From IMG/VR virus record IMGVR_UViG_3300019135_000051, positions 1-53,953 of that record: DNA of 53,953 nucleotides, one strand, 5' to 3'. This document shows, piece after piece, positions 1 through 53,953 of the stretch (positions are counted from its first letter, which is position 1; the number at the start of each line of letters is the position of its first letter). Position numbers and translations under genes: made by a program. The stretch comes from a virus. Lineage: Duplodnaviria; Caudoviricetes. Under the pieces are notes generated by a model. That model was not told where the DNA came from and did not search any database. It saw nothing but the letters and a program-made list of their open reading frames with translations.

Positions 1-1140
1 CTAAAGTGACTTTGAGCGTTTTTGCTTCATCATTTTCTCGAAGTTGTCAGCTGCGTCTTTTTGCATGTCCGGTAATACATGGCTGTAAACGTCCATCGTG
101 ATGCCCACCCGACTATGCCCCAGGCGCTCGGAAACCACCTTGGGGTGTTCACCCAGCTGCAGGAGCATGGTGGCATGGGTGTGTCGCAGATCGTGGAAGC
201 GAATGTACGGCAAGCCACTCCTTTTGATGATCCGCTCGTAGTGCCGTAGCAAATTGCGGGGGTCCTGCGGCCGACCGTCATCATAACAGACCACAAGGTC
301 GTGATCCTGGTAACCCGCACCGTATTGTATGCGCAGCGCATTTTGCTTAGCTCGGTGAGACTTCAGTTCCTTGACAACGAACTGAGGGATGGCAATTCGC
401 CGTTTCGCGCTTTTAGTCTTCGGCTCCTGGAAGATGATCCCGGAATTTGCGGGACGATATAGAGTCTGTTGCACGCTGATCCGAGACTGCTCAAAGTCAA
501 CATCTTTCCAACGTAGACCTAGGATTTCCCCTCGGCGCATACCGGTATAAATGGCCAGTACAAAAGCGATGTAATACTTGTCGTCCTTGGCATAAGACAG
601 AAACTCGTTCGCCTGTTCCGCAGTCCAGGTAACGATTTCTTTCTGGATAAGACGGGGAGGATCAACGTGCTCCATGATGTTCTTGGGAACCAACTGCCAT
701 TTGACGGCCTGATTCAGGGCTTTGCTGAGCACGGAGTGCAGATACTTGATGTAATCAGCTGAAAGCCCCTCTTTTTGCAGCTCGGCCAAATACTTTGTGA
801 CGCGGAGCGGAGTCAGCTTGTCCAACTCGTGATGGCCAAGAGAGGGGATGAGTCTGCTCCTGACTGCAATCTCGTGGTTTGTATAGGTGGACTGGCGGAG
901 ATTGGTCTTTGCGTAGTTCTCTAACCAAAATTCCAGGTAGCTTGCCAAGGTTTGCTTTTTCGAAATGACGAGCTCACCGCGTTCAAACTGTGCAATCATC
1001 TCTGCACATGCAACCTCGGCCTCCTTTTTGGTTTTGAAACCGGAGCGTGTTATTTGCCGACGCTTTCCTGTCTCGGGATCGGTTCCGAGGGAGACTGCAA
1101 ACGACCAGGTGCTTCCGCGTTTTCTGAAGTGTCCCTTCAT
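1..1140 (-). CDS. int: Tyrosine integrase (ICEBs1/phage type with N-terminal arm-binding domain)
   Basis: TGMRRGE, RFHDLRHTHAT, ERLGH and YSHV catalytic motifs; N-terminal RSGFKTKKEA. Confidence 0.97.
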   Translation of the reverse strand: MKGHFRKRGSTWSFAVSLGTDPETGKRRQITRSGFKTKKEAEVACAEMIAQFERGELVISKKQTLASYLEFWLENYAKTNLRQSTYTNHEIAVRSRLIPSLGHHELDKLTPLRVTKYLAELQKEGLSADYIKYLHSVLSKALNQAVKWQLVPKNIMEHVDPPRLIQKEIVTWTAEQANEFLSYAKDDKYYIAFVLAIYTGMRRGEILGLRWKDVDFEQSRISVQQTLYRPANSGIIFQEPKTKSAKRRIAIPQFVVKELKSHRAKQNALRIQYGAGYQDHDLVVCYDDGRPQDPRNLLRHYERIIKRSGLPYIRFHDLRHTHATMLLQLGEHPKVVSERLGHSRVGITMDVYSHVLPDMQKDAADNFEKMMKQKRSKSL

Positions 1141-1219
1141 AGCATCCAATCCTTTCTGTAAATGATGGGAATATATGTTCGGTTTCAGGGCGAAAGAGAG
1201 CCCCGAAACGAAGAACCAA

Positions 1220-38074: not shown

Positions 38075-38932
38075 TTGTCGGATTTAAAGTTGGCTGTTTC
38101 TGAAAAATTAACTTATTGCACGGTCAGAATTGAATGCATCTTAAAAGACGGATCTACAAGTACTGGAACCGGATTCTTTTTTAATTTCCTTGAGGGAAAC
38201 AACAGGTATTTACCTACTATCGTGACTAATAAACATGTAGTCAAAGATGCAGTAATAGGGAGAATTCCAATTACAATTCAGGATAGTAACGGTAACCCTC
38301 AAACAGGCTCTTATTTTAATGTTGAGGTACCAGACTTTGAGCGTAAATGTATTTTTCATCCTGAGGATGATGTTGACCTTTGTGTATTACCGATCACCTT
38401 TATACTCAATACATTAGAATCACACGGCGTAAAAGCTTATAATCTAGCATTAACTAAAGCGCAAATTCCAACTGCTGAAGATCTGAACGATTTGACAGCT
38501 TTGGAAGAAGTAATAATGATTGGTTATCCAAACGGAATATGGGATCATGTGAATAACTTACCAATTGTTCGCAGTGGTGTAACAGCAACGCACCCTAATA
38601 TTGACTATCAAGGTAGACCAGAATTTATGATTGATGCAGCTTGTTTCCCTGGCTCTAGTGGATCTCCGGTACTGCTCTATAATCAGGGTTCATACGTATC
38701 AAAATCTAAGGGTGTACTTATCGGAGGAACAAGATTAATGCTTTTAGGTGTCCTCTATGCCGGCCCCCAACATACGGCCTCGGGGGAAATAAAAATCGTC
38801 AACATTCCTACGAGACAAGAACCGGTGGTCATTTCAAGAGTACCAAATAATTTAGGACTGATCATAAAGTCTCGTAAGATAATAGAGTTCGAAGAAATCC
38901 TAAGAAATTTAATCGCAGAGAAGAATAAATAA
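38075..38932 (+). CDS. Trypsin-like serine protease (moron)
   Basis: GTGFF, VTNKHV (His), VDLC (Asp), PGSSGSP (Ser). Confidence 0.9.
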   Translation: MSDLKLAVSEKLTYCTVRIECILKDGSTSTGTGFFFNFLEGNNRYLPTIVTNKHVVKDAVIGRIPITIQDSNGNPQTGSYFNVEVPDFERKCIFHPEDDVDLCVLPITFILNTLESHGVKAYNLALTKAQIPTAEDLNDLTALEEVIMIGYPNGIWDHVNNLPIVRSGVTATHPNIDYQGRPEFMIDAACFPGSSGSPVLLYNQGSYVSKSKGVLIGGTRLMLLGVLYAGPQHTASGEIKIVNIPTRQEPVVISRVPNNLGLIIKSRKIIEFEEILRNLIAEKNK

Positions 38933-39600: not shown

Positions 39601-40206
39601 TTATCGAATGTCATCAATCAGGTAAACCGAGGATGGCATACCCTCGCATATGTCTCTGAACCGCCTTACTCTGCCGGGGCTGACCGTTACGATGTGAAGG
39701 GTGGGGAAGTATCCAAACTGCTGTTGAAACAAGCCTCGGTCGAACATCTCCCGATATCTCTTGATTTTTGCGCTGTTTTCGACCATGGTCTGAGTGTTAT
39801 CGACCTCTAGAAAGTGATACTGCTTATTCTTCATGAACAGGGCGTCTGCAACGAGCGTGGTCTGCCCATCAGTCACCTTGATCTCGTTTCTCCAATTGAC
39901 AGGACAGCCGACATGGAAAAAGAAATCGTTTCGCATCAGAGTGTGTCTGATTTGGAGGGTGCGTTTGACCACCTTTTTAGAGCCGATCATCTGCCGGCCG
40001 TGCTTATTCAGGTAGTAGACTGTGCCATACCGCTCTTCCCGGAAACTGTGAACGAGATCTCCCATCTGCCTGAGTACCTTCTGGGCGTTCCGATCACCGC
40101 CCAAGCGGTGCAGCCGCTGGAGTTGCCCTCTACTCAAAAAACCGAATCTGTCCAAGCTGTGCAGGATCTGCTCCTGTCTTTCTAACCTGTTCACGGCGAC
40201 TCTCAT
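39601..40206 (-). CDS. Replication-relaxation (Replic_Relax) family protein
   Basis: LDRFGFLSRGQL wHTH, YYL, HTLMRND, VADA...FLEVD. Confidence 0.85.
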   Translation of the reverse strand: MRVAVNRLERQEQILHSLDRFGFLSRGQLQRLHRLGGDRNAQKVLRQMGDLVHSFREERYGTVYYLNKHGRQMIGSKKVVKRTLQIRHTLMRNDFFFHVGCPVNWRNEIKVTDGQTTLVADALFMKNKQYHFLEVDNTQTMVENSAKIKRYREMFDRGLFQQQFGYFPTLHIVTVSPGRVRRFRDICEGMPSSVYLIDDIR

Positions 40207-41458
40207 CGCTGGCCTCCTTCCTTGGCTTGATTACGATGTTTGGCTGAACGACATACCGGATGGTCTTTGTGTCGATGAGCGGAGTCTGCACGATCTGCCG
40301 TTTGTCAGCGGTCTGAAAGATAGCTCGCCCTTTGATCTCAGGTAGAGTTTCGGCCCCGGTATCATCAAGTACGACACGGGAAGCGGTCCCGTTCTGCACG
40401 CGGAAGCATAGCTTCGCATCACTGTTTTGCTTGCACTGGCGAGGTATGACATCGCCGGTGGGGTACTGTGTGGCCAGGATCTGACGGTAACCAAGACCGG
40501 CACCGAGACGGGCAATCGTGCTCATGTACGTCTGGCAGCGTTCCTTCAGAGCGCGTTCTTCCTTTGTCACCGCCTCATCAGGGTTGAGTTCGCCGACCTC
40601 ATCGACGATTACGAAATGCCGAAAGGGGTCCTTGGCCTCCTGTACGTTTTTCACACCGCGTCGCTTGAGCGCCTGTTGCTTTTCCCGCATCTCCACTACA
40701 ACGGCCTGCAATGCCTTCTCAGCTTCTTCAGGCTCCTCAGCGTAGTGGGAGACCTGCTTCGCATCCTGGAATTCATGGAACTCTACGCCGCCTTTGAGGT
40801 CGACAAGCGTAAAACGAACGTGATCTGGCTGCTGTGCGATCAACGTGGCGATCAACATATTGAGAAAGTTGCTTTTTCCGTATCGGGTCGCGCCGCCAAC
40901 GACCATATGCGGCGTTTGATCGAAGTCGTGGTAGATGATGGTGTTGCTCTCCCTGATCTGGCCAACGGGAACCTTCCAGTCCCCGACAAGCGGAGCGTCT
41001 TCATAGTTTAACAGGGGCGGTAACGGAGTGTGATAGACCCGCACCTTGAGCAGGCCATCATAAATTAACTCCACCTCCTTCTTTACCGCTTTCCTCGTGA
41101 GGAGCATTTTGACTTGTGGAATCAGTGGCTGCCCCCAGTCTATCTTCATGAAATCCGCCAATGTTACCTGAAAAGGCATCTTTCGGTTGTTCAGACCGTC
41201 CTGGATGTGGTTGAGCTTTGCAAGGTAATCCTCAAAACTCCGTCCGAGCGGGATCCGGTAGCTGTACTCCGTTCCCCAGGTGTGGGCCCGCTTTTTGATC
41301 AGTTGCGCCGTGTAAGTCTTATCCTTGTCGCGGACGTTCAGGCCAGTGAGCGTAAAGATTTTGTTTATTTTGTCGCTGTCGCTCGTCAATCCGGATTTTT
41401 TAATTTTTGCATAAAACGCAATCCCTCCCATGATGGCAGTAGTGAAGACCTCAATCAT
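40130..41458 (-). CDS. FtsK/SpoIIIE-domain ATPase
   Basis: PHMVVGGATRYGKS, DLKGG, VDEVGEL, ATQYP. Confidence 0.92.
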   Translation of the reverse strand: MIEVFTTAIMGGIAFYAKIKKSGLTSDSDKINKIFTLTGLNVRDKDKTYTAQLIKKRAHTWGTEYSYRIPLGRSFEDYLAKLNHIQDGLNNRKMPFQVTLADFMKIDWGQPLIPQVKMLLTRKAVKKEVELIYDGLLKVRVYHTPLPPLLNYEDAPLVGDWKVPVGQIRESNTIIYHDFDQTPHMVVGGATRYGKSNFLNMLIATLIAQQPDHVRFTLVDLKGGVEFHEFQDAKQVSHYAEEPEEAEKALQAVVVEMREKQQALKRRGVKNVQEAKDPFRHFVIVDEVGELNPDEAVTKEERALKERCQTYMSTIARLGAGLGYRQILATQYPTGDVIPRQCKQNSDAKLCFRVQNGTASRVVLDDTGAETLPEIKGRAIFQTADKRQIVQTPLIDTKTIRYVVQPNIVIKPRKEASDESRREQVRKTGADPAQLGQIRFFE

Positions 41459-41728: not shown

Positions 41729-41953
41729 ATGTTTGGATTGGGCAAGCCCAGATCACGGTTTGGTAAGTGGTTGGACCGGAACGGGATCACACAAGAGGAG
41801 TTATCAAGAGAAAGTGGGGTGAATAAGTCAACAATCAGCCGAATATGCAGCGGTGATGCCTTTAAGCCCTCAATACGGAGTGCAGCCAAAATTATCAAGG
41901 CACTCCGGAACAGAGGCAAGGATGTGACCATGGATGATTTTTGGTCGATGTAG
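41729..41953 (+). CDS. XRE HTH regulator divergent from the FtsK operon
   Basis: GITQEELSRESGVNKSTISRIC. Confidence 0.88.
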   Translation: MFGLGKPRSRFGKWLDRNGITQEELSRESGVNKSTISRICSGDAFKPSIRSAAKIIKALRNRGKDVTMDDFWSM

Positions 41954-42668: not shown

Positions 42669-43560
42669 CAGAAGTCGCAAGGCGTTCAGATTCCTGTTCA
42701 AGACGTAGAAATGCGTGCGTTGGACGTGTATGAGCGTCTTGTGGAGGTGGGCGCATGATCGAGTTCGAACAAGCCCGCCACCGTTTGGAGGAACTCGGAT
42801 TGGGCCAAGCGGCCCAATCACTCGATGCAAAGTTGGAAGCCGCCAGCCGCAACCAAAGCACGTATCTCTCTTTCCTCAACGAATTGCTAGATGCTGAGAT
42901 TCAAGAGCGCCAGCGCCGAAACGTGGGGGTTCGCATGAAGCTGTTCCACCTGCCTTATCGGCGCGCGCTGAGCGAGTTCGATTTCTCCTTTCAACCGGGG
43001 ATTGATGAGCGACTGATTCGTGAACTGGCGGCGCTGTCCTTCGTTGGGAGGCAAGAAAATGTACTGTTTCTTGGTCCTCCTCGCGTGGGGAAAACGCATT
43101 TAGCAATTGCCATTGCCATGGAGGCCATTGGACAAAGATTGCCTGTGTATTTCGTTTCACTCGCACAGCTCGTGGGCTGCAAACAGCTTACGAAGAGAAG
43201 CGCCTGGACAAGCGAATGAGGGTATATCTTCGTCCGCGCATCCTCATCGTAGACGAGGTGGGATACCTCCCTCTCCATCCGCTTGCTGCAAACCTGATTT
43301 TTCAGTTGGTTTGTGCACGCTACGAGAAAGGAAGCATGATTCTAACTAGCAACAAAAGCTTCGGCGAGTGGGGTGAACTCATGGGCGATCACGTTCTTGC
43401 AACAGCTGTTCTTGATCGCTTATTGCATCACTCCCACGTCGTGAACATCCGAGGGAACAGCTACCGACTCAAAGAAAAACTAAAAACCGGAATCTATTCG
43501 ACGCTAGGCGCACAGGTGGGTCAAAATTATCCCGGCGTTGAGAGTTTTGATAGCCATTAA
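42669..43560 (+). mobile_element. istB: Degenerate IS21-family element: istA C-terminal stub plus frameshifted istB
   Basis: VEMRALDVYERL stub; FDFSFQP, GPPRVGKTHLA, DEVGY, TSNK, LDRLLHH, GNSYR split across two frames. Confidence 0.88.
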
Positions 43561-44166: not shown

Positions 44167-44718
44167 CTAAATAAGAGTTGAGAAATTATGAAGATGAGGC
44201 GTAAGGCTTGTACACCTCGGAATGACAATATCCGTTAAAAGAGTTGTTCTTAAATCTTTTTTGGGGTGAAAAACTTGGACGAAGTCCGTAGTTTATCAAG
44301 CTATTACCTTTCTTTAGGTACTATTAATGATATTTTTATGTGTGCTTTTCTAAACTGTCACATTGCATTTTTAGCTTTACTTTAAGTCATTTTTGAAAGT
44401 CTAAAAACATAAACGCACTGTCAACTTACGTTTTTGCAACACATTTACCATGAGTCCCCTATGATATGGGAAGTAGCTTCTCATAACTGATGACAAGGAA
44501 TTTACCTAATACAACTAATAAGACTGTATAAAGTGTTAGGATCACAAAGCAACATTGGTAGTTATACGGGTTTTTTCTGTATGTACTTACCTGTTGCTGT
44601 TGTGGCCACCAAAAATGAATGTCTTAAATGGCAATAGTCGGTAGAAAGTGTTAAACAATGTTGATAAAATAGGAAATTAGTAATGGGTTGTTGTGGAATA
44701 TTTTTGAGGAGGCTCGGC

Positions 44719-46518
44719 ATGGCAAACAAGGTATTAATAGTAAAGAAATTAATGAGTTCTGATCTTGGGTGGTTTGCTGTATGTCGTACCCCGGATATTA
44801 CTAGAGCAAAGCAATGTGGATTGAATATAGATACCAAATTCATAACGAATTTATTTAATAACATAGAGGATCAGAATTCTATCCCAGTGGAAGTTTGTTA
44901 TTGGCAAAATGGAGACTCTGTACCTTTTAAAAAAAATTTTGAGATTCGGCATCAAGGCAAAAATTGGCGACTTACAGGGAAAATTGAAGGGGATTTTTAC
45001 TCGGGACTAAAACCAGGAGACTATATACTCCTTTTCTTTAATATTGACAGTGGTAAAACTAGTATCTATTGGGAGCTTGCTTGCCAAGATCCAAATATGG
45101 GTAGAACAGCACTTTATAAGTATATTGATAATGAAATAGGAGAAAACTCTATCGTCCATGATTCAACTATTAAAGAAAAAATTTTAAGCTTTCTAAAAGA
45201 TATAAACACAGAACTGCATGACTTTGTTAAGAATTCAGAGGTGGTGCACCAACAAGTTAAGAGAGCATTTTCATCTCGCCACGTTCTTGCAGATATTATG
45301 GCAACCGTAGTTACACTTTCTAGTAAAACACAAGTTGAATATTTAGACATCCTGGAACGTATTGTCGAACGGTTCAGATATCTTCTACGGGATCAGATTT
45401 TCTCAATAGACTTAAACCATAAACAAATGTGGGATTCTGTAAAGGGTATGAAACTTGGATTTATAGATGGTGGAGTTGCCTCAATTAGTTCACTTGGTTC
45501 TGAACCTATTGCTATAAGAGTGGGTGAATATACAGTTAAGCCTGGAATAATTGGTGATGACAGAGAGACTTTTAAGTTCAAAGCTCAACTTGTAGACGAG
45601 CTATATGACTACGAAAGTAGTATCTTCGATGAGTATTCTGATAACTTTCCTAAATTACTTGATATGGCGAGGATTTTTACAGAAGCTGGAGCAGTATACA
45701 AATCAATAAAAGAAGAGGACAAATGTGATTTCCTATTTTTACATGGCCCTTTGGTTAACCCGGCTGCACCTTATGCTGATTTACCCAAGTTTACTAACAA
45801 GGCTTTAGAAATGTTTGGGCTAAATCGAAACGACATAATACAAGGTGTGGTACCTCCCCCCGGTTATGAGTCTCACTTTATAGCTGTATATCAATATTTA
45901 CTACATTCAATCTTTAAAAGTGATACACCTATATGCGGCATTGTAGAACGTAGTGCAGGTTCTCGAATTGTATCAATGACTTTGCTAAATCAACTAGCAA
46001 AACGAGGATTTGCAATGGAAGCAGATCAGATTGCTAGTTCAATGAAGGAAAATCGAATCTCTGATGCGATACTTTTCTCTTGTTTATTGAAAGAAGGGGA
46101 GTATATTCGACCTATAAATATTGATAAGAATGAATTAGGAAAATCACCAGACAGATGGAAATCCGTAATTGATAACTATCCTGAGCCTCTAACAACTTAC
46201 TTGAAAGCAACGGATACCTCGTATCCTTTTAGAGTCGAACTGAACAAATCTTTTAATGAACACAGTCAATTCATAATAAGCTTGGTTTATCATATGGCTA
46301 GATTGCTCCCTCAATATGCTTTCCCTGTTGGCCTAGACATCGTTGATAAGTTTGCAAAAGTACCAGCTTGGATGACCAAGCAGATATCGAAGGAGCAGAG
46401 TGCTCAAATACTTAGTAAAGCTTTAACATCAGGAAGAAGAGATGTTGTCGATCTTGTTAGATTATACTTGTCTGGAAACTCTCGGGATTGGCTATTTAGG
46501 CCGAAATATGACCGTTAA
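44719..46518 (+). CDS. NurA-family nuclease with N-terminal EcoRII-N/B3-like domain
   Basis: GFIDGG, FLHGPL, ICGIVER, PFRVE, AFPVGLDIVDKFAKV; RBS GAGGAGG; upstream of HerA. Confidence 0.82.
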   Translation: MANKVLIVKKLMSSDLGWFAVCRTPDITRAKQCGLNIDTKFITNLFNNIEDQNSIPVEVCYWQNGDSVPFKKNFEIRHQGKNWRLTGKIEGDFYSGLKPGDYILLFFNIDSGKTSIYWELACQDPNMGRTALYKYIDNEIGENSIVHDSTIKEKILSFLKDINTELHDFVKNSEVVHQQVKRAFSSRHVLADIMATVVTLSSKTQVEYLDILERIVERFRYLLRDQIFSIDLNHKQMWDSVKGMKLGFIDGGVASISSLGSEPIAIRVGEYTVKPGIIGDDRETFKFKAQLVDELYDYESSIFDEYSDNFPKLLDMARIFTEAGAVYKSIKEEDKCDFLFLHGPLVNPAAPYADLPKFTNKALEMFGLNRNDIIQGVVPPPGYESHFIAVYQYLLHSIFKSDTPICGIVERSAGSRIVSMTLLNQLAKRGFAMEADQIASSMKENRISDAILFSCLLKEGEYIRPINIDKNELGKSPDRWKSVIDNYPEPLTTYLKATDTSYPFRVELNKSFNEHSQFIISLVYHMARLLPQYAFPVGLDIVDKFAKVPAWMTKQISKEQSAQILSKALTSGRRDVVDLVRLYLSGNSRDWLFRPKYDR

Positions 46519-46530
46519 AGGGGAAAAGTC

Positions 46531-48216
46531 ATGACTAATATTTGGAAACATATAGGAACTGTTGTTGGAAATACAGATACACAAGAATATACCTTCATTC
46601 TCAAGAAATTCAAATCCAGAGTAGGAGATATAGTATGTGTTAAAATGTTAATTCCTACAGAAGACTATATCTCAACGAAACAAGTATTAGTATGGGGAAG
46701 AGTTGTTTCTATAGAACGATATAATCCGTTCTTTCCTTTTGAAGCAGCACAAGAATTAGGTGAGAATGGCATTAACATAATTGATACAGTTCTTTCCAAT
46801 AGCCGAGACCAACTTCAAGCAAGGGTACTAGTTCTAGGTTATACGAATGAAGGAGATAGCAAATACAATCTTTTCCCAGTTACCTATCCAATCGAGCCAG
46901 CAGCTGAAGTTGTGTTTCCCCCATCTGATGTAATTACGCTTTTATTGCAAGGAGAACAAAAAGACACAAGTATTCATGTTGGGAGTCTTATATCACGCAG
47001 TGACGTTGGGGTATCGTTAAGAGCTAACCCCATCGTTGCTCGTCACATGGCAATCTTGGCTATGACAGGTGGTGGTAAATCAGTAGCCTCCAGACGAATT
47101 ATAAGGGAACTGGCAAACCAAGGTTATCCCCTTCTTATACTCGATCCTCATGGTGACTACTTGTCTCTTGCAGAACACCAAGAAAAGTTTGAAGGAAACA
47201 AGATAAAGCTCTTTTATCCACATATAAAAATAAACAGCAGAAACGAATACATGATAAAAATGCTCATTGCAAAGATGACAAAGGGCTTGACCGAACCACA
47301 ACAAGAAGTACTTGACTTAGCCCTTGAAAATGAAATACCAAGAAATGAGGTTAGTATTAGAGACTACATTGGTACCTTAATATCTAGAATCGATCAAATG
47401 CAAGTAGCTTCTACACTTAATCGTTCTAAAGGTGCACTAAAGCGTGCATTGAGGTTTGTGGATGAAAAACTTAACGCTATGGAGGCATCAAACCAACAAT
47501 TACGAACTAGGTTAGATAATTTTGATTTTAAGGAACTCCCTGATCCTATAGACAACCCAAACGGAATTATTGCCCCTAATCAAATATCTATCTTATATTT
47601 AGGTGGTTATGACCATATAACTCAAAGTACTATCGTTTCTATATTATTGGATGCAATGTTTAACCATAGAGCTACTATGACTAACCGAATACCTCCTTTC
47701 TTTACAGTAGTTGAAGAAGCTCACAATTTCATTCCTTCCCATTCAGAAGGTCAAAGTGATACTCCTTCTCTGGAATCAATTAGAAGAATCATTACTGAGG
47801 GAAGAAAATTTGGAACTGGGCTATTATTAATAAGTCAACGACCAAGTCGATTAGACCAAACTATTTTATCTCAATGTAACTCGTTTCTAATTTTACGACT
47901 TGTAAATCCAAAAGATCAGAACTTTGTGCGTCAGGTAATGGAAAATCTTTCTGAATCTGATGCAAGAATGCTTCCAGCGTTTGGTCCCGGTCAGGGGTTA
48001 ATTAGCGGACAGGCGGTTCGGTTTCCACTTTTAGTTAAGATAAAAATGGACGAAGACCTTATTCCGAGTACTATTGGGGATGAGAATTTTATTGAACAAG
48101 CAAAAGCGTGGGGGCAATCTCAAGAAGCTGAAGAAGTGGCCATTTCAAATGCAACAACAGAGTTTTTAAAGCGAGCTTCTAGACGTAAAAAACGGGTGAA
48201 TAGCAATGGAAAATGA
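46531..48216 (+). CDS. HerA-family ATPase/helicase (HAS barrel plus P-loop)
   Basis: HMAILAMTGGGKS, DPHGDY, VEEAHNF, EGRKFG, ISQRPS. Confidence 0.92.
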   Translation: MTNIWKHIGTVVGNTDTQEYTFILKKFKSRVGDIVCVKMLIPTEDYISTKQVLVWGRVVSIERYNPFFPFEAAQELGENGINIIDTVLSNSRDQLQARVLVLGYTNEGDSKYNLFPVTYPIEPAAEVVFPPSDVITLLLQGEQKDTSIHVGSLISRSDVGVSLRANPIVARHMAILAMTGGGKSVASRRIIRELANQGYPLLILDPHGDYLSLAEHQEKFEGNKIKLFYPHIKINSRNEYMIKMLIAKMTKGLTEPQQEVLDLALENEIPRNEVSIRDYIGTLISRIDQMQVASTLNRSKGALKRALRFVDEKLNAMEASNQQLRTRLDNFDFKELPDPIDNPNGIIAPNQISILYLGGYDHITQSTIVSILLDAMFNHRATMTNRIPPFFTVVEEAHNFIPSHSEGQSDTPSLESIRRIITEGRKFGTGLLLISQRPSRLDQTILSQCNSFLILRLVNPKDQNFVRQVMENLSESDARMLPAFGPGQGLISGQAVRFPLLVKIKMDEDLIPSTIGDENFIEQAKAWGQSQEAEEVAISNATTEFLKRASRRKKRVNSNGK

Positions 48217-49954
48217 TCTTATAGTGTTTTCACATGAATTTCAACAACAAGTTCTGCTGAGTATGCAAAACTCTGACGTTGAAGAAAGAGAGAACTGTTT
48301 TACTGAATATATGATAAATTGCTTAATTGAGGACGGTACACTGGAAGACGGTATCCCACTTTATTACAGAAAGGGTGGGATGCAAATAAATGGCTACTCA
48401 TTTGTTGAAGAGACTGGTATTTTAAACCTTTTTGTTAGCCAGTACAATGCAGCTTCACCACCAGCAAATGTCAGATTAAGTGACTTGGATTCAGCGTTGA
48501 ATCGACTGTTTTTGTTCCTCAAAAAGACTTTAAATGGCCTAAATAACAATCTAGAAAAGGGAACCCCTATTAACGATCTCATACTTAGACTTTTTGAAGA
48601 AAAGGAATCAATAACAAAGGTCAATCTTTATTTTTTAACAGATGGAGTAATCAAAAAAACTTGGAATAAGGAACTATCTTTAGATAACTTAGAGATTGAG
48701 GTTCATTTATGGGACATCGAAAGGTTATTTCGAACTATTACCTCAGGAAAGAATAGAGAAGCTATTGAGATCGATTTTGAAAAACTAGGATATTCTATTC
48801 CCTGTCTTGAGATGCCAGAAAAAAACGAAACATATGAAACCTATCTTGCAATTTTTCCCGCAATTTTATTAGTAGAGATATATGGGAAATATCGTTCACG
48901 TCTTCTTGAAGGTAATGTTAGATCTTTTCTTCAAATCCGGGGAAGTGTGAATAAAGGAATACGTGATACGATAAAAAATGAGCCACATATGTTTCTTGCT
49001 TACAACAATGGAATTTCAGCCGTAGCTGAGAGTGCAGAAATTGTGAAAACTCCTAAGGGTCTTGCGATACGAAAGGTTAGAGATTTGCAGATTGTAAATG
49101 GGGGCCAAACAACTGCGACACTTTACTATGTATATAAAAAAGATCGTGTAAGTCTAAAAGGTGTTAGCGTTCAAGTAAAGCTTACCGTAGTTTCAGATCC
49201 AGCGACTATGGGGGAAATTGTACCCAAAATATCGGAGTATGCTAACAGTCAGAATAAAATACAAGGTGCTGATTTCTCTTCGAATCATCCCTACCATCGG
49301 GCACTTGAAGAGCTTTCAAGGACTGTTTGGGCCCCTGTTGTTGGTGGTATGCAGCGACAAACTAAGTGGTATTATGAACGAGCTCGAGGCCAGTATTTGG
49401 TAGATAGGGGTAGAGAAAATACACTGACTCACAAGCGTAACTTTGATGCGGAATTCCCCAAAAATCAAAAATTTGATAAAACGGATCTGGCTAAGTATGT
49501 AAACGTATGGCAACAAAAGCCATACGTTGTTAGCCGTGGTGCACAAAAAAACTTTAATGAGTTTATGGATTACATTAACGAAGAAAAGATACCGTTGCCC
49601 GTTCAATCAGATTATGAAAAGCTTATTGCATTAGCAATTTTATACAGGAAAGCCGAGCAATTATTAAACGAACAAAAAGATAGATACCCGGCTTACCGTT
49701 CCTATATAGTGGCATACTCTATCGCTTGGATTTCTTATGTAACAGATGGTGAGATAGATCTACATAAAATATGGCGAGAACAAGATATTGATGATTCCAT
49801 AAAAGAAAGCTTAAATTATATTTTTCCTTATGCTAATAAACATATTACTAACGCACCAGGTAGCGGTAATATTACGGAATGGGCTAAAAAGAAAGAGTGT
49901 TGGGATGCCTTCACCAAATTAGATATCGATATTCCAGACTCTTTGATTGAGTGA
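48206..49954 (+). CDS. AIPR-family protein
   Basis: RLLEGNVRSFLQ, FLAYNNGISA, QIVNGGQTT, ANSQN, WYYERARGQY. Confidence 0.92.
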   Translation: MENDLIVFSHEFQQQVLLSMQNSDVEERENCFTEYMINCLIEDGTLEDGIPLYYRKGGMQINGYSFVEETGILNLFVSQYNAASPPANVRLSDLDSALNRLFLFLKKTLNGLNNNLEKGTPINDLILRLFEEKESITKVNLYFLTDGVIKKTWNKELSLDNLEIEVHLWDIERLFRTITSGKNREAIEIDFEKLGYSIPCLEMPEKNETYETYLAIFPAILLVEIYGKYRSRLLEGNVRSFLQIRGSVNKGIRDTIKNEPHMFLAYNNGISAVAESAEIVKTPKGLAIRKVRDLQIVNGGQTTATLYYVYKKDRVSLKGVSVQVKLTVVSDPATMGEIVPKISEYANSQNKIQGADFSSNHPYHRALEELSRTVWAPVVGGMQRQTKWYYERARGQYLVDRGRENTLTHKRNFDAEFPKNQKFDKTDLAKYVNVWQQKPYVVSRGAQKNFNEFMDYINEEKIPLPVQSDYEKLIALAILYRKAEQLLNEQKDRYPAYRSYIVAYSIAWISYVTDGEIDLHKIWREQDIDDSIKESLNYIFPYANKHITNAPGSGNITEWAKKKECWDAFTKLDIDIPDSLIE

Positions 49955-50015
49955 TGTTTACTTTTATAAAATACTAGAGTATTCTATTGAAGCTAAAGAA
50001 TTTTGGGGTGAGACC

Positions 50016-51251
50016 ATGAATTTCATTGATATATTTGCAGGGGCTGGTGGACTTTCAGAAGGATTTGTCAGACAGGGTTTTTTGCCAATTGCCCATGTTG
50101 AAATGAATCGGGATGCTGCTCTCACTCTAAAAACAAGGATGGTATATCATGAACTGAAGAAAAGTAATCAGTTAGATATATATAATAACTATCTCCTTGG
50201 AAGTATTACGAGAGACGAGTTGTATAAAACGAATCCACAGGTTGAGAATTTCGTTATTCAAAAGGAAATTTCTGATGAGACCATTGATTCAATATTTAAC
50301 ACAATAGACAAGAATTTAAAAGAATTAAAACAGAAGAGTGTTGATATTCTTATCGGTGGGCCGCCGTGTCAGGCGTATTCATTAGTTGGAAGAGCTAGAG
50401 ATCCTTATGGGAAAGAACATGATCCAAGAAATTATCTGTATAAGCAATATATAAAATTCCTCATAAGATACGAACCTAAAATGTTTATCTTTGAAAATGT
50501 TCCAGGTATCCTTACTGCTGGCAAAGGTCAGTTGTTTAATGATGTTAAGAAATATATGGACGAGGCTGGTTACGATATTAAAGCAGAGACGCTTGATGCT
50601 TCTGACTTTGGAGTATTACAAAAGAGATTTAGAGTTATCTTAGTTGGATGGAAGAAGGGAACCAAATACAGTTATCCAATTTTGGAAAAGCAGTCACATA
50701 ACTTTCTAGTCAAAGATTTACTTATTGATTTACCAAGGCTTCATCCAGGGCAATCAATAAATTGTGGTGATTATACAGGAGAGCCTACGAGGTACCTGCA
50801 ACAATTCAAAATTAGAGATAAAGAAGATATTTTGATTCAACATATAACTAGGCCTCATAATGAGAGAGATCGAGAAATTTATGAACATGTAATCAATACT
50901 TGGGAAAAGGAAAATAGACGTCTGAAGTATAATGAGTTACCTGAGAGATTAAAGACTCATAAGAATAGGGAATCTTTCTTAGACCGTTTTAAAGTGGTAG
51001 GTTCTAATCAACCTTACTCACATACATTGGTTGCACATATTGCCAAAGATGGACACTACTATATTCACCCGGACATTACACAATTAAGATCTATTTCAGT
51101 TCGTGAAGCAGCAAGGATACAATCATTTCCCGATAATTACTTTTTTGAGGGTTCAAGAACTGCAGCATTTACGCAAATTGGAAACGCTGTACCTCCTTTG
51201 ATGTCTGAAGCTCTTGCGATGAAGCTTAAGGAAATGATCTCTTCAGTATAA
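50016..51251 (+). CDS. dcm: C5 cytosine DNA methyltransferase
   Basis: FAGAGG (I), GGPPCQ (IV), ENV (VI), QKRFR (VIII), REAARIQSFPD (IX), IGNAVPP (X). Confidence 0.96.
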   Translation: MNFIDIFAGAGGLSEGFVRQGFLPIAHVEMNRDAALTLKTRMVYHELKKSNQLDIYNNYLLGSITRDELYKTNPQVENFVIQKEISDETIDSIFNTIDKNLKELKQKSVDILIGGPPCQAYSLVGRARDPYGKEHDPRNYLYKQYIKFLIRYEPKMFIFENVPGILTAGKGQLFNDVKKYMDEAGYDIKAETLDASDFGVLQKRFRVILVGWKKGTKYSYPILEKQSHNFLVKDLLIDLPRLHPGQSINCGDYTGEPTRYLQQFKIRDKEDILIQHITRPHNERDREIYEHVINTWEKENRRLKYNELPERLKTHKNRESFLDRFKVVGSNQPYSHTLVAHIAKDGHYYIHPDITQLRSISVREAARIQSFPDNYFFEGSRTAAFTQIGNAVPPLMSEALAMKLKEMISSV

Positions 51252-51257
51252 GTTGTA

Positions 51258-51288
51258 AGCCACTTCTTTTTGGAGTGGCTAATTTTTT
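51258..51288 (+). terminator. Terminator of the NurA-HerA-AIPR-MTase operon
   Basis: AGCCACTTC/GGAGTGGCT hairpin followed by a T-run. Confidence 0.7.
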
Positions 51289-51383
51289 GTAGTTATTCCC
51301 TTTGTATGGTTGTTTAATTAATCAATTTAACCTAAAAGGCTTAAAAACTGGGAGATAAAGCAAGTCAATTTACGCATGATGTA

Positions 51384-53635: not shown

Positions 53636-53953
53636 GTGCTGCCGCGAAAAGCGATTACCGAACGGTCACCGAGGCCAGGTACGGAAGAAGAGTTGTACGT
53701 GAAGTTCGTGGTGGAAGAGTGGATGAAGCGAGAAGTGCCGATCGTATCCGGCGGACAAGGGATCTATACCTTGTTGTTTACCACCAAGTATATCTTCGAC
53801 CGCGCCAGCGAGATTGCCGAACTTCGCTTAGAAAACGAAGAACAGTTAAAAGAATGGCGTGAGAAGCGCCGGCGTGGCAACGTGAAGGTTGAGTTGGATC
53901 ATCACTACGTGGATCTGGCCAAGCGTGTGGTGAGGATTGAGGGGCATGAGTAA
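53636..53953 (+). CDS. Hypothetical protein
   Basis: 105-aa ORF ending at the window end; start uncertain. Confidence 0.5.
   Translation: MLPRKAITERSPRPGTEEELYVKFVVEEWMKREVPIVSGGQGIYTLLFTTKYIFDRASEIAELRLENEEQLKEWREKRRRGNVKVELDHHYVDLAKRVVRIEGHE

What the first reader, a model, noticed from the sequence alone, without database searches (positions are those of the whole stretch)
44719..45300. NurA carries an extra ~190-aa N-terminal domain resembling the EcoRII-N/B3 DNA-recognition fold, and unusual catalytic residues
Seen: IVKKLMSSDLGWFA...AKQCGLNI...KNWRLTG...GLKPGDYILLF precedes the NurA core. Known: EcoRII-N-type B3 domains show a similar K-L-S-x-x-D...Q-x-G-x-x-I...R-L-T...GD pattern and read specific sequences; repair NurA lacks such a domain. 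The core reads HGPL where DG is typical, and IVDK where a C-terminal His is typical. Inference: a normally non-specific resection nuclease has been made sequence- or methylation-specific.
Basis: inference. Interest (0 to 1): 0.72.

Follow-up and report, generated by a model that had tools for sequence, protein, structure and literature searches.

The report
NurA nuclease with B3-like DNA reader
A bacterial NurA-type DNA-degrading enzyme carries a DNA-reading domain of the kind restriction enzymes use, in one operon with a motor ATPase, an abortive-infection protein and a DNA methylase, which looks like a restriction-type anti-phage system I found no description of.

Summary
The gene is real: 44719-46518 (+), 599 aa, with a strong ribosome-binding site. 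Residues 1-125 are modelled with confidence (pLDDT 85.8) as a beta-barrel. Its only convincing structural matches are plant B3 domains and the restriction enzyme BfiI. ESM Atlas neighbours carry EcoRII-N. Sequence-level support is weak: Pfam gives nothing, and hhalign against EcoRII-N gives 22% probability.

The C-terminal part is a divergent NurA. Foldseek's best hits are P. furiosus NurA, and hhalign against 25 Pfam-grade NurAs gives 98.7% probability.

The "unusual residues" claim is half right. Motif II has His instead of the catalytic Asp in 45 of 45 family members, against 0 of 25 canonical NurAs. The motif III Asp is the common bacterial state (21 of 25).

The gene heads a tight four-gene cassette, NurA-HerA-AIPR-C5 methyltransferase, on a low-GC island of a provirus record. 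In 114 related loci HerA always follows wherever sequence is available. All but one of the 26 B3-type loci, a short contig, carry a C5 methyltransferase, and none carries AIPR.

The best reading is an ATP-dependent restriction-modification-like defence system. Whether the B3-like domain reads sequence or methylation is untested. No N-domain/methyltransferase co-variation was detected. I rate it a new variant of a known kind.

The parts
44642..44670 (+). promoter-like site (TAGAAA, 17 nt spacer, TG-extended TAAAAT) ahead of the operon
   Evidence: Consensus scan, 9 of 12 matches. This is weak: the number of sites in the region is not above that in shuffles.
44705..44711 (+). Shine-Dalgarno sequence GAGGAGG, 7-8 nt before ATG 44719
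   Evidence: Read directly from the sequence.
44719..46518 (+). Gene for a 599-aa B3-like/NurA fusion nuclease (the stop codon is included)
   Evidence: ORF. 100%-identical 599-aa database protein P0001. Full-length model pLDDT 85.7.
44719..45093 (+). Residues 1-125: B3/EcoRII-N-like DNA-binding pseudobarrel. Conserved motifs are SDLGWF (14-19), Q32-x-G-x-N36, KNWRLxG (81-87) and GD (100-101).
   Evidence: Model strands 3-10, 34-37, 54-61, 70-79, 82-86, 102-110 and 113-121. Foldseek top 7 hits are B3/BfiI. ESM Atlas. Conservation.
45094..45438 (+). Residues 126-240: helical linker and N-terminal helical extension. Members without the N-domain begin at about residue 186.
   Evidence: Model helices 130-139, 149-162, 164-185, 187-197 and 202-222. 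Alignment A1.
45439..46518 (+). Residues 241-599: RNase H-fold NurA core. Key residues: D250 (codon 45466-45468, motif I FIDGG), E322 (45682-45684), H342 (45742-45744, motif II LHG in place of DG), E410, Y533-x-F535 (46315-46323), D540 and D543 (46336-46347, motif III LDIVD).
   Evidence: Foldseek hits to NurA 3tal/3taz/3tai at E 2-6e-5. hhalign to 25 canonical NurAs: probability 98.7%, E 2e-15. Invariance 45 of 45. Codons checked.
46531..48216 (+). HerA-type hexameric ATPase, 561 aa. The P-loop reads AMTGGGKS and Walker B reads VVEEAH at residue 393.
   Evidence: Pfam PF01935 at E 2.6e-29. PADLOC HerA at E 4.5e-54. Motifs. There is a 13-nt gap after the NurA gene.
48206..49954 (+). AIPR protein, 582 aa. 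Its start overlaps the end of herA by 11 nt.
   Evidence: Pfam AIPR at E 5.5e-100 and AIPR_N at E 7.4e-35. PADLOC MzaE at E 2.7e-95. NCBIfam MzaE scores 400 bits, below its cut-off of 1050.
50016..51251 (+). C5 cytosine DNA methyltransferase, 411 aa from ATG 50016. The ORF list starts it at TTG 49947. Motifs present: FAGAG, PCQ, ENV.
   Evidence: Pfam PF00145 at E 1.6e-60. PADLOC DrmMII at E 1.2e-178, with the profile starting at residue 23 of the long ORF. Motifs.
51258..51290 (+). Terminator-like hairpin (9-bp stem) with a T-run, 7 nt after the methyltransferase stop
   Evidence: Consensus scan.

Best explanation
Window 44719-51251 is one operon. It encodes an ATP-dependent, restriction-modification-like defence module built on a NurA-HerA nuclease-translocase.

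Shown: gene 1 is a divergent NurA-family RNase H-fold nuclease. It keeps motif I Asp, the helix Glu and motif III Asp, but has an invariant His where canonical NurAs have the motif II Asp. It is fused at its N-terminus to a B3/EcoRII-N-type pseudobarrel. Genes 2-4 are an intact HerA ATPase, an AIPR protein and an intact C5 cytosine methyltransferase.

Inferred mechanism: the methyltransferase marks host DNA. The two B3-like domains of a NurA dimer bind DNA at sites that lack this mark. Either they recruit the complex, or, as in EcoRII, they release an autoinhibited nuclease. The HerA hexamer then pumps duplex DNA into the NurA ring, which degrades both strands processively. AIPR, described in the literature as a predicted HEPN RNase toxin, would act as a coupled back-up or abortive-infection arm. 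In most other lineages the system carries either the B3 domain or AIPR. This window carries both.
For: Fold of the N-domain:
- Model pLDDT 85.8, pTM 0.83.
- The top 7 of the Foldseek PDB hits are VAL1/FUS3/LEC2 B3 domains and BfiI, at probability 0.98-1.00 and target-normalised TM 0.57-0.62 for the B3 domains. From rank 8 on, probability is 0.20 or less.
- The same B3 hits recur with the full-length model; FUS3 gives TMt 0.65.
- ESM Atlas feature neighbours carry PF09217 EcoRII-N (13-15% of cluster members, score 0.91). Structure neighbours include HNH+EcoRII-N, EcoRII-C, McrB-like AAA_5, HATPase_c_3 and NOV_C proteins and plant B3, at TM 0.53-0.80.

NurA core:
- All 4 Foldseek hits at E <= 1e-3 are P. 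furiosus NurA.
- 37 of 45 family members hit PF09376 at E <= 1. The 81%-identical P0002 scores 34 bits against a cut-off of 21.
- hhalign against 25 canonical NurAs gives probability 98.7%, E 2.1e-15, over 328 columns.
- D250, E322, H342, E410, Y533, F535 and D543 are each invariant in 45 of 45.
- The Y-x-F loop before the last helix matches the Y298/F300 active-site and HerA-binding segment of S. solfataricus NurA (PMC3326311, passages).

Operon:
- Gaps of 13 nt, -11 nt and at most 62 nt, with a terminator-like hairpin after the last gene.

Conserved context:
- HerA follows the NurA gene in 108 of 114 loci. The other 6 loci end within about 120 nt.
- A C5 methyltransferase is present in 25 of 26 B3-type loci, mostly abutting or overlapping upstream.
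- NurA-core and methyltransferase distances correlate: r 0.81, partial r 0.43 controlling for the N-domain, p 0.001.
- The cassette sits in a low-GC island, 0.35-0.40 against about 0.43-0.57 elsewhere.

Literature (passages read):
- AIPR is commonly encoded in RM operons (PMC2292703).
- AIPR carries a predicted HEPN toxin domain (PMC3506569).
- HerA-NurA degrades both strands from DNA ends, and a defence role has been proposed (PMC12977600).
Against: - The window protein itself gets no NurA, B3 or EcoRII-N hit in Pfam, PADLOC or NCBIfam at E <= 0.1.
- A profile of the family finds no PDB chain by sequence even at E <= 10.
- No Foldseek hit of the N-domain model reaches E <= 1e-3; the best is 1.4e-3.
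- hhalign of the N-domain against 6 EcoRII-N sequences gives only 22% probability, E 9.7e-4.
- N-domain and methyltransferase divergence do not co-vary once the core is controlled for: partial r -0.06, p 0.65, 20 loci.
- Q32, N82 and W83 are invariant and N36, K81 and R84 nearly so across 29 sequences that share only about 20% identity and sit beside different methyltransferases. This fits a constant ligand at least as well as diverse recognition sites.
- Ring-shaped NurA-HerA is known to act from DNA ends. How it would load at an internal site is unexplained.
- His at the motif II metal-ligand position could mean altered or lost catalysis.
- In this window the methyltransferase lies after AIPR rather than directly upstream of NurA, so it could belong to AIPR.
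- The genomic context of the close relatives (44-81% identity, P0002-P0013) could not be retrieved.
- I could not make a residue-level 3D superposition, because the VIA-align libraries were unavailable.
Confidence: 0.55

Rival explanations
1. The N-terminal barrel is a general DNA-handling or regulatory module of a defence NurA-HerA. It would work as a non-specific duplex or end clamp, or as an autoinhibitory lid. Self/non-self discrimination would then come from elsewhere: from the methyltransferase acting through another reader, from AIPR, or from DNA ends.
For: - Q32, N82 and W83 are invariant and N36, K81 and R84 nearly so across 29 sequences at about 20% identity.
- There is no N-domain/methyltransferase co-variation.
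- 78 of 114 loci lack any N-domain yet keep the same partners: methyltransferase in 46 of 78 and AIPR in 49 of 78.
- Other members carry unrelated N-terminal modules, for example the CxxC pairs in P0047.
Against: - Characterised prokaryotic domains of this fold (EcoRII-N, BfiI-C, NgoAVII/CglI R-subunit) are site-specific readers (abstracts of PMC3973309, PMC4267654 and PMC2770665 seen in search listings).
- The loops at residues 20-31 and 62-72 are variable and carry indels, as expected for specificity arms.
- The N-domain is the fastest-evolving part: mean p-distance 0.57, against 0.44 for the core and 0.36 for HerA.
Confidence: 0.2
2. The B3-like domain reads modified rather than unmodified DNA. 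NurA-HerA would then be a Type IV-like, modification-dependent nuclease, and the neighbouring methyltransferase would serve AIPR or another system.
For: - ESM Atlas structure neighbours include McrB-like AAA_5 proteins and HNH_2 proteins; I recall, without checking, that some of these are modification-dependent.
- In this window the methyltransferase follows AIPR rather than NurA.
Against: - In 25 of 26 B3-type loci a C5 methyltransferase is in the locus, usually abutting or overlapping the NurA start on the same strand, and no AIPR is present. A nuclease that attacks methylated DNA would be self-toxic there.
- Core and methyltransferase are co-inherited (r 0.81).
Confidence: 0.1
3. Two independent modules lie side by side. 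An AIPR-methyltransferase pair sits next to a B3-NurA-HerA pair that works without any methyltransferase, for example by degrading incoming linear DNA from its ends.
For: - AIPR-methyltransferase linkage is known in its own right (PMC2292703, passage).
- The Pelagibacteraceae loci L068-L080 have NurA-HerA with neither methyltransferase nor AIPR within about 8 kb.
- This window is the only B3-type locus with AIPR.
Against: - The four genes are packed with gaps of 13, -11 and at most 62 nt, and the only terminator-like hairpin with a long stem follows the last gene.
- The same four families recur together, in several orders, in the clades without an N-domain: AIPR in 49 of 78 and methyltransferase in 46 of 78.
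Confidence: 0.1
4. This is a housekeeping NurA-HerA double-strand-break resection pair, and the other genes are neighbours by chance.
For: Public annotation of the 81%-identical homologue reads 'DNA double-strand break repair nuclease NurA'. NCBIfam's best HerA hit is the repair HerA model, but at 175 bits against a cut-off of 970.
Against: - The cassette lies on a low-GC island next to an IS21 remnant in a provirus record.
- The family is rare: 184 relatives among contigs of 185,579 species genomes.
- Methyltransferase and AIPR linkage is conserved.
- No Mre11/Rad50 was seen in the cassette.
Confidence: 0.03

Closest known systems
CglI / NgoAVII ATP-dependent restriction-modification systems (PMC5737866 passages; PMC4267653 and PMC4267654 abstracts in search listings)
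   Same: A multi-gene cassette with a C5 methyltransferase, a nuclease subunit that carries a B3-like DNA-binding domain, and a separate NTP-hydrolysing DNA motor subunit. The logic is a site reader fused to a nuclease and driven by a translocase.
Archaeal and Deinococcus-Thermus NurA-HerA (S. solfataricus 2YGK, P. furiosus 3TAI/3TAL; PMC3326311, PMC12977600, PMC13748450 passages)
   Same: RNase H-like NurA core. Motif I DG. The Y-x-F loop before the last helix. The gene is directly followed by herA. The expected action is HerA feeding duplex DNA into a NurA ring.
   Different: Motif II Asp is replaced by an invariant His. There is an extra N-terminal pseudobarrel and a long helical linker. 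The partners are a methyltransferase and AIPR rather than Mre11/Rad50. The location is a mobile low-GC island. The window protein falls below Pfam's reporting threshold.
EcoRII and BfiI (EcoRII-N and BfiI-C pseudobarrel domains; PMC2770665 and PMC3973309 abstracts in search listings)
   Same: A B3-type pseudobarrel fused to a restriction nuclease. The motif register shared with EcoRII-N sequences fetched here is K-[RK]-L-S-x-x-D, Q-x-G-x-x-I and R-[LI]-T-G.
   Different: The catalytic partner is different (PD-(D/E)XK in EcoRII, PLD in BfiI). There is an insertion of about 8 residues between the S-x-x-D and Q-x-G motifs. Profile similarity is only 22% probability. Those enzymes do not depend on ATP.
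HerA-coupled anti-phage systems (Sir2-HerA, DUF4297-HerA; abstracts of PMC11472057, PMC11514289 and PMC11291478 in a search listing)
   Same: A HerA ATPase paired with an effector encoded by the adjacent gene, inside defence islands. The window's HerA hits PADLOC HerA models.
   Different: The effector is NurA rather than Sir2 or DUF4297. A modification enzyme is present, which implies epigenetic self-marking rather than abortive NAD+ depletion.
AIPR-linked RM operons and the MZA system (PMC2292703 and PMC3506569 passages; PADLOC/NCBIfam MzaE models)
   Same: An AIPR protein encoded next to a cytosine methyltransferase. It matches PADLOC MzaE at E 2.7e-95.

Membership tests
NurA (Pfam PF09376) | Match to the family HMM above the gathering score (21 bits) | tested here: inconclusive
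   The window protein gets no hit at E <= 0.1. Its 81%-identical homologue P0002 scores 34 bits, and 7 other family members score 26-38 bits. 37 of 45 members hit at E <= 1.
NurA (Pfam PF09376) | RNase H-like fold resembling solved NurA structures | tested here: met
   All 4 Foldseek PDB hits at E <= 1e-3 are P. furiosus NurA (E 2.3-5.5e-5, probability 1.00). TM1739 (1zup) comes next. Global TM is low (0.28 query-normalised, 0.37 target-normalised) because the model has several domains. hhalign to 25 canonical NurAs gives probability 98.7%.
NurA (Pfam PF09376) | Motif I (I/V)(V/A)x(V/I)DG with the catalytic Asp (PMC13748450) | tested here: met
   FIDGG. D250 is invariant in 45 of 45 and aligns to the motif I Asp, which is present in 25 of 25 canonical sequences.
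NurA (Pfam PF09376) | Motif II (I/V)(L/V)(L/M)DG with the catalytic Asp | tested here: not met
   FLHG. H342 is present in 45 of 45 family members. The aligned position is Asp in 25 of 25 canonical sequences.
NurA (Pfam PF09376) | Motif III near the C-terminus (archaeal LxxAH) | tested here: met
   The motif reads LDIVD, with Asp at the His position. This is the majority state in the bacterial sample: Asp in 21 of 25 and His in 4 of 25.
NurA (Pfam PF09376) | Gene adjacent to herA | tested here: met
   There is a 13-nt gap to a PF01935 HerA. HerA follows in 108 of 114 related loci; the other 6 are cut off by contig ends.
NurA (Pfam PF09376) | Toroidal homodimer; Mn-dependent 5'-3' exonuclease and endonuclease activity | not testable with these tools
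   This needs a structure and enzymology.
B3 / EcoRII-N DNA-binding pseudobarrel | Pseudobarrel fold similar to solved B3, EcoRII-N or BfiI-C domains | tested here: met
   [not shown]
B3 / EcoRII-N DNA-binding pseudobarrel | Sequence-profile match to PF02362 (B3) or PF09217 (EcoRII-N) | tested here: not met
   Neither family appears among the 20 families hit by the 45 members at E <= 1. hhalign to 6 EcoRII-N sequences gives probability 22%, E 9.7e-4, over 96 columns, in the expected register.
B3 / EcoRII-N DNA-binding pseudobarrel | Site-specific DNA binding through N- and C-arm loops | not testable with these tools
   This needs EMSA, SELEX or a co-crystal structure.
ATP-dependent RM of the CglI/NgoAVII kind | Cognate methyltransferase, a nuclease with a B3-like domain and an NTPase motor in one cassette | tested here: met
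[not shown]
   The nuclease is NurA-like and the motor is HerA. This is therefore an analogue, not a member.
ATP-dependent RM of the CglI/NgoAVII kind | Methylation-sensitive, NTP-dependent cleavage | not testable with these tools
   This needs biochemistry.
[not shown]
   NCBIfam MzaE scores 400 bits, below the cut-off of 1050. None of the four cassette proteins or the 10 flanking ORFs scanned hit any other Mza model.
DISARM class 2 | DrmMII together with the DrmA, DrmB, DrmC and DrmE genes | tested here: not met
   The methyltransferase matches PADLOC DrmMII at E 1.2e-178. The only other Drm hit is a 'DrmD' model that matches the two halves of a broken IS21 IstB (Pfam IstB_IS21). The large phage ORFs upstream were not scanned with PADLOC.

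The most novel reading that the evidence does not exclude
This family is a distinct class of ATP-dependent restriction-modification system. A NurA2-HerA6 ring machine is the restriction enzyme. A cognate C5 methyltransferase supplies self-marking. Target reading is supplied in cis by a B3/EcoRII-N-type domain or in trans by AIPR. The catalytic centre carries His in place of the motif II Asp.

If so, this would be the first genomic case in which NurA-HerA is tied directly to epigenetic self/non-self discrimination. That bears on the open question of whether NurA-HerA is a repair machine or a defence machine.
Probability: 0.4. Interest if true: 0.75.

Novelty: new variant of a known kind. Interest (0 to 1): 0.62.

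Why it matters
NurA-HerA has been treated for twenty years as an archaeal end-resection machine. Recent structural work argues that it shreds both strands and may be a defence nuclease, but offers no genetic link to self/non-self discrimination (PMC12977600, passages).

Here a bacterial NurA-HerA lineage is encoded beside a cytosine methyltransferase, and in one branch it is fused to a restriction-enzyme-type DNA reader. I found 215 clusters at 50% identity and 184 relatives among contigs of 185,579 species genomes. This gives a directly testable model: a methylation-gated NurA-HerA.

It also adds a third nuclease fold, after PD-(D/E)XK and PLD, that has recruited the B3/EcoRII-N pseudobarrel. 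And it offers a natural experiment on a His-for-Asp change at a two-metal active site.

PADLOC (2023) has no model that hits the NurA component, so such cassettes currently go unrecognised as a unit.

Tried and rejected
- Direct family scans of the window protein (Pfam, PADLOC, NCBIfam) gave only sub-threshold noise (DUF4745, FANCI_S2, hsdR).
- PDB sequence searches gave nothing relevant, either with the single protein or with the family profile.
- Foldseek of the N-domain model against BFVD gave no credible match.
- tblastn against the plasmid and phage collections found nothing.
The context of the close relatives (P0002-P0013) therefore stayed out of reach.
- The metagenome scan with the single protein found nothing. 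The permitted second scan, with alignment A3, found 31 loci, none above about 41% identity.
- An N-domain region search found only 8 NurA fusions.
- P0185 and P0186, which match only the N-domain, look like truncated or frameshifted fusions rather than a separate architecture.
- The alternative N-terminal module of P0061 could not be identified; the best ESM Atlas score was 0.78.
- B3 versus AIPR exclusivity: 0 of 26 B3-type loci carry AIPR, against 49 of 78 loci with no N-domain and 3 of 10 with another N-module. On the tree this comes down to at least 6 changes for B3 and 8 for AIPR, with only 4 independent pairs and a sign test p of 1. I do not claim a functional trade-off.
- A partial Mantel test for N-domain/methyltransferase co-variation was negative. 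Whole-protein methyltransferase distance is a crude proxy for specificity, so this is weak evidence either way.
- I tested the guess that the DrmMII-like methyltransferase targets CCWGG by counting sites. There are 110 against 85 expected, so no depletion, and the result is uninformative.
- Complex prediction on two copies of the NurA core (residues 186-599) returned 'no answer' with a score of 0.00. This is not evidence for or against dimerisation.
- Literature searches found no paper joining NurA with a B3 or EcoRII-N domain, and none holding AIPR, HerA, methyltransferase and defense together. One search was a wasted search, because the 'mza' terms hit journal codes.
- Iyer et al. 2004 (PMC521647) and Makarova et al. 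2011 (PMC3194920) are not held. They, or supplements I did not open, may already list NurA-HerA-methylase neighbourhoods.
Full report
**The gene.**
The finding's coordinates, 44719-45300, are the first 194 codons of a + strand gene that ends at 46518. The ORF list opens the frame at ATG 44683. ATG 44719, however, is preceded by GAGGAGG at the right spacing, and a 100%-identical 599-aa database protein begins there.

The window is the whole of a 53,953-bp IMG/VR 'provirus' record. Its content runs as follows:
- integrase at 1-1149 (-);
- terminase, portal and tape measure at 19.8-30.4 kb;
- an amidase at 35.3-36.1 kb;
- an FtsK-like gene and a replication-initiator gene at 39.6-41.5 kb (-);
- a broken IS21 istB at 42.8-43.6 kb;
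- a block from about 43.6 kb to the end with GC 0.35-0.40, against about 0.43-0.57 elsewhere.

The gene lies in this low-GC block. Whether the block belongs to the prophage or is an adjacent island swept in by the provirus call cannot be decided here.

**The N-terminal domain.**
An AlphaFold2 model of residues 1-194, built with 28 homologues, has pLDDT 85.8 and pTM 0.83. It shows a seven-stranded barrel over residues 3-121, followed by helices.
- Foldseek against the PDB ranks VAL1, BfiI, FUS3, VAL1, VAL1, LEC2 and LEC2 first. Probability is 0.98-1.00, E is 1.4e-3 to 2.2e-2, and target-normalised TM is 0.57-0.62 for the plant B3 domains. From rank 8 on, probability is 0.20 or less. No hit reaches E <= 1e-3.
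- The full-length model recovers the same B3 hits; FUS3 gives TMt 0.65.
- In the ESM Atlas the nearest clusters by language-model features carry PF09217 EcoRII-N in 13-15% of members (score 0.91).
- The nearest clusters by structure (TM 0.53-0.80) carry HATPase_c_3, NOV_C, McrB-like AAA_5, HNH_2 with EcoRII-N, or EcoRII-C, and one cluster is plant B3.
- At the sequence level the link is weak. No B3 or EcoRII-N Pfam hit appears in any of the 45 family members at E <= 1.
- hhalign of the N-domain alignment against six EcoRII-N sequences, fetched from 6 of 401 sampled genomes, gives probability 22% and E 9.7e-4 over 96 columns.

I accept the fold assignment. Family membership by sequence is unproven.

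**The NurA core.**
The full-length model has pLDDT 85.7. All four Foldseek PDB hits at E <= 1e-3 are P. furiosus NurA (3tal, 3taz A and B, 3tai; E 2.3-5.5e-5). Next come T. maritima TM1739, Argonaute PIWI domains and EndoV.

The window protein itself is invisible to Pfam at E <= 0.1. Its 81%-identical homologue P0002 scores 34 bits, above the cut-off of 21, and 37 of 45 family members hit PF09376 at E <= 1.

To map residues I proceeded as follows:
1. I sampled 201 genomes of one bacterial phylum; 35 had a PF09376 match.
2. I took 26 ORFs and dropped L140 because the wrong ORF had been picked.
3. I aligned the remaining 25.
4. I ran hhalign against the family core, which gave probability 98.7%, E 2.1e-15 and 328 columns.

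The mapping is:
- D250 aligns to the motif I Asp.
- H342-G343 aligns to the motif II Asp-Gly.
- E322 falls within one residue of the helix Glu.
- E410, D449 and G460-E461 match conserved canonical positions.
- P536, L539, D540 and D543 match the canonical P..LD..D.

The tallies are:
- Motif II: Asp in 25 of 25 canonical sequences, His in 45 of 45 family members.
- Motif III: Asp in 21 of 25 and His in 4 of 25 canonical sequences, Asp in 45 of 45 family members.

So the His-for-Asp change at motif II is a true family signature. The motif III Asp is simply the common bacterial state and differs only from the archaeal LxxAH (PMC13748450, passages).

Y533-A-F535, on the loop before the last helix, parallels Y298/F300 of S. 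solfataricus NurA. There Y298 lies at the active site and F300 is in the HerA-binding patch (PMC3326311, passages). This last correspondence is by position and my own reading, not by superposition.

**The operon and its relatives.**
Downstream, with gaps of 13 nt, -11 nt and at most 62 nt, lie:
- a HerA ATPase with an intact P-loop and Walker B;
- an AIPR protein;
- a C5 methyltransferase with the FxGxG, PCQ and ENV motifs.

A terminator-like hairpin follows 7 nt after the last stop codon.

The family is rare:
- 215 clusters at E <= 1e-3 among 1.84 billion representatives;
- 184 relatives among contigs of 185,579 species genomes, of which 80 were kept;
- 3 relatives in 2.9 million viral contigs;
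- none in the plasmid or phage collections.

In 114 fetched loci (some are duplicates of one contig, for example L083 and L094, and L089-L092):
- HerA follows the NurA gene in 108. The other 6 loci end within about 120 nt.
- Among the 26 loci with the B3-like domain, 25 hold a C5 methyltransferase, usually abutting or overlapping upstream. The exception is a short contig. None of the 26 holds AIPR.
- Among the 78 loci with no N-extension, 49 hold AIPR and 46 hold a methyltransferase.
- Among the 10 loci with some other N-extension, 3 hold AIPR and 9 hold a methyltransferase.

The window is the only fetched locus with both the B3 domain and AIPR.

On a quick maximum-likelihood tree of the core, B3-bearing members fall in several clades of one half of the tree. 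The tree has 124 rows; rows with fewer than 330 aligned core residues were left out. There are at least 6 state changes for B3 and 8 for AIPR, and only 4 independent contrasts. The B3/AIPR anticorrelation therefore cannot be separated from shared descent.

Core, HerA, N-domain and methyltransferase distances are all correlated (r 0.76-0.95). The core-methyltransferase correlation survives controlling for the N-domain (partial r 0.43, p 0.001). The N-domain-methyltransferase correlation vanishes when the core is controlled for (partial r -0.06, p 0.65; 20 loci). The N-domain is the fastest-evolving part.

**Mechanism.**
Shown:
- the domain architecture;
- an intact-looking active site with one permuted ligand;
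- an intact motor and an intact methyltransferase;
- tight operon packing;
- conserved co-inheritance.

Inferred:
- The methyltransferase protects host DNA.
- The pseudobarrels read the unmodified state, as EcoRII-N, BfiI-C and the CglI/NgoAVII R-subunits read their sites.
- The barrels either tether or license NurA2-HerA6.
- HerA then pumps duplex DNA into NurA, which degrades both strands, as shown for the archaeal complex (PMC12977600, passages).
- AIPR, described as a predicted HEPN toxin that is common in RM operons (PMC3506569 and PMC2292703, passages), would add an abortive arm.

Weak points:
- How a closed ring would load at internal sites is unexplained.
- Specificity has not been demonstrated.
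- Several candidate DNA-facing residues do not vary.
- In this window the methyltransferase sits next to AIPR rather than next to NurA.

**Comparison and novelty.**

It is a NurA by fold and profile. It fails the canonical motif II, and the window protein itself falls below Pfam's threshold.

The searches named under Tried and rejected found no paper describing a NurA with a B3/EcoRII-N domain or a NurA-HerA-methyltransferase-AIPR cassette. Two older comparative-genomics papers and all supplements could not be read, so earlier mention cannot be excluded.

I rate this a new variant of a known kind, with interest 0.62.

Noticed in passing
window 38075-38932 (+): This 285-aa ORF lies between the phage lysis gene and the FtsK/Rep pair. 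It matches the PADLOC single-gene defence candidate PDC-S45 (E 1.6e-119) and Pfam Trypsin_2 (E 3.3e-11). It is a second likely defence gene in the record.
   Followed up: partly
window 42755-43560 (+): An IS21 istB is split into two overlapping ORFs that cover Pfam IstB_IS21 positions 3-133 and 149-237. No istA was seen in the ORF lists. It sits exactly at the step from about 0.5 to about 0.36 GC. PADLOC labels both halves 'DrmD', which looks like a model contaminated by IstB-like ATPases.
   Followed up: partly
window 39601-41458 (-): A replication-initiator gene (phrog_2190) and an FtsK/SpoIIIE-like gene (phrog_1358), with an HTH_3 gene at 41729-41953, lie after the phage lysis module. This could be a small integrated mobilisable element inside or beside the prophage.
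   Followed up: no
window 43222-43239 and 53788-53805: An 18-nt direct repeat (17 of 18 identical) lies 10,566 nt apart and roughly brackets the low-GC block. One copy is inside the istB remnant and the other inside the open-ended ORF at 53636-53953. It may be chance.
   Followed up: no
P0047, P0061; loci L031, L039, L051, L052, L057, L079: Other members of the same NurA family carry different N-terminal modules. P0047 has two CxxC...CxxC zinc-ribbon-like pairs. The P0061 type has a module of about 160-180 aa with no identifiable relatives. The N-terminus of this NurA lineage seems to be a swap site.
   Followed up: partly
loci L068-L080 except L070 and L079 (Pelagibacteraceae; 11 loci): NurA-HerA pairs of the same family have neither a C5 methyltransferase nor AIPR detectable within about 8 kb. 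This branch may work differently.
   Followed up: no
locus L010 (Chthoniobacteraceae MAG): A B3-bearing NurA without AIPR is nested in a clade (support 100) whose 8 other members mostly lack an N-domain (one has a longer N-extension) and all carry AIPR. This is the one clean within-clade swap of B3 for AIPR.
   Followed up: partly
loci L116-L141 (canonical NurA sample): Pfam-grade bacterial NurAs split into two motif III types: 'P..LD..D' in 20 of 25, with L116 a further variant carrying the second Asp only, and 'LxEAH' in 4 of 25, the archaeal-like form. The published motif III (LxxAH) therefore describes only a minority of this bacterial sample.
   Followed up: partly
ESM Atlas neighbours of residues 1-130: The closest feature clusters are small (130-158 aa) hypothetical proteins. 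Two of the three carry EcoRII-N in 13-15% of members; the third shows no common family. The few members with a recorded taxon are largely phage (up to 85% Viruses). These are stand-alone pseudobarrels in phages whose role I did not examine.
   Followed up: no
window, whole: CCWGG occurs 110 times against 85.3 +/- 8.3 in shuffles, and 0 of 100 shuffles reach 110. This is a mild excess, not an avoidance.
   Followed up: no
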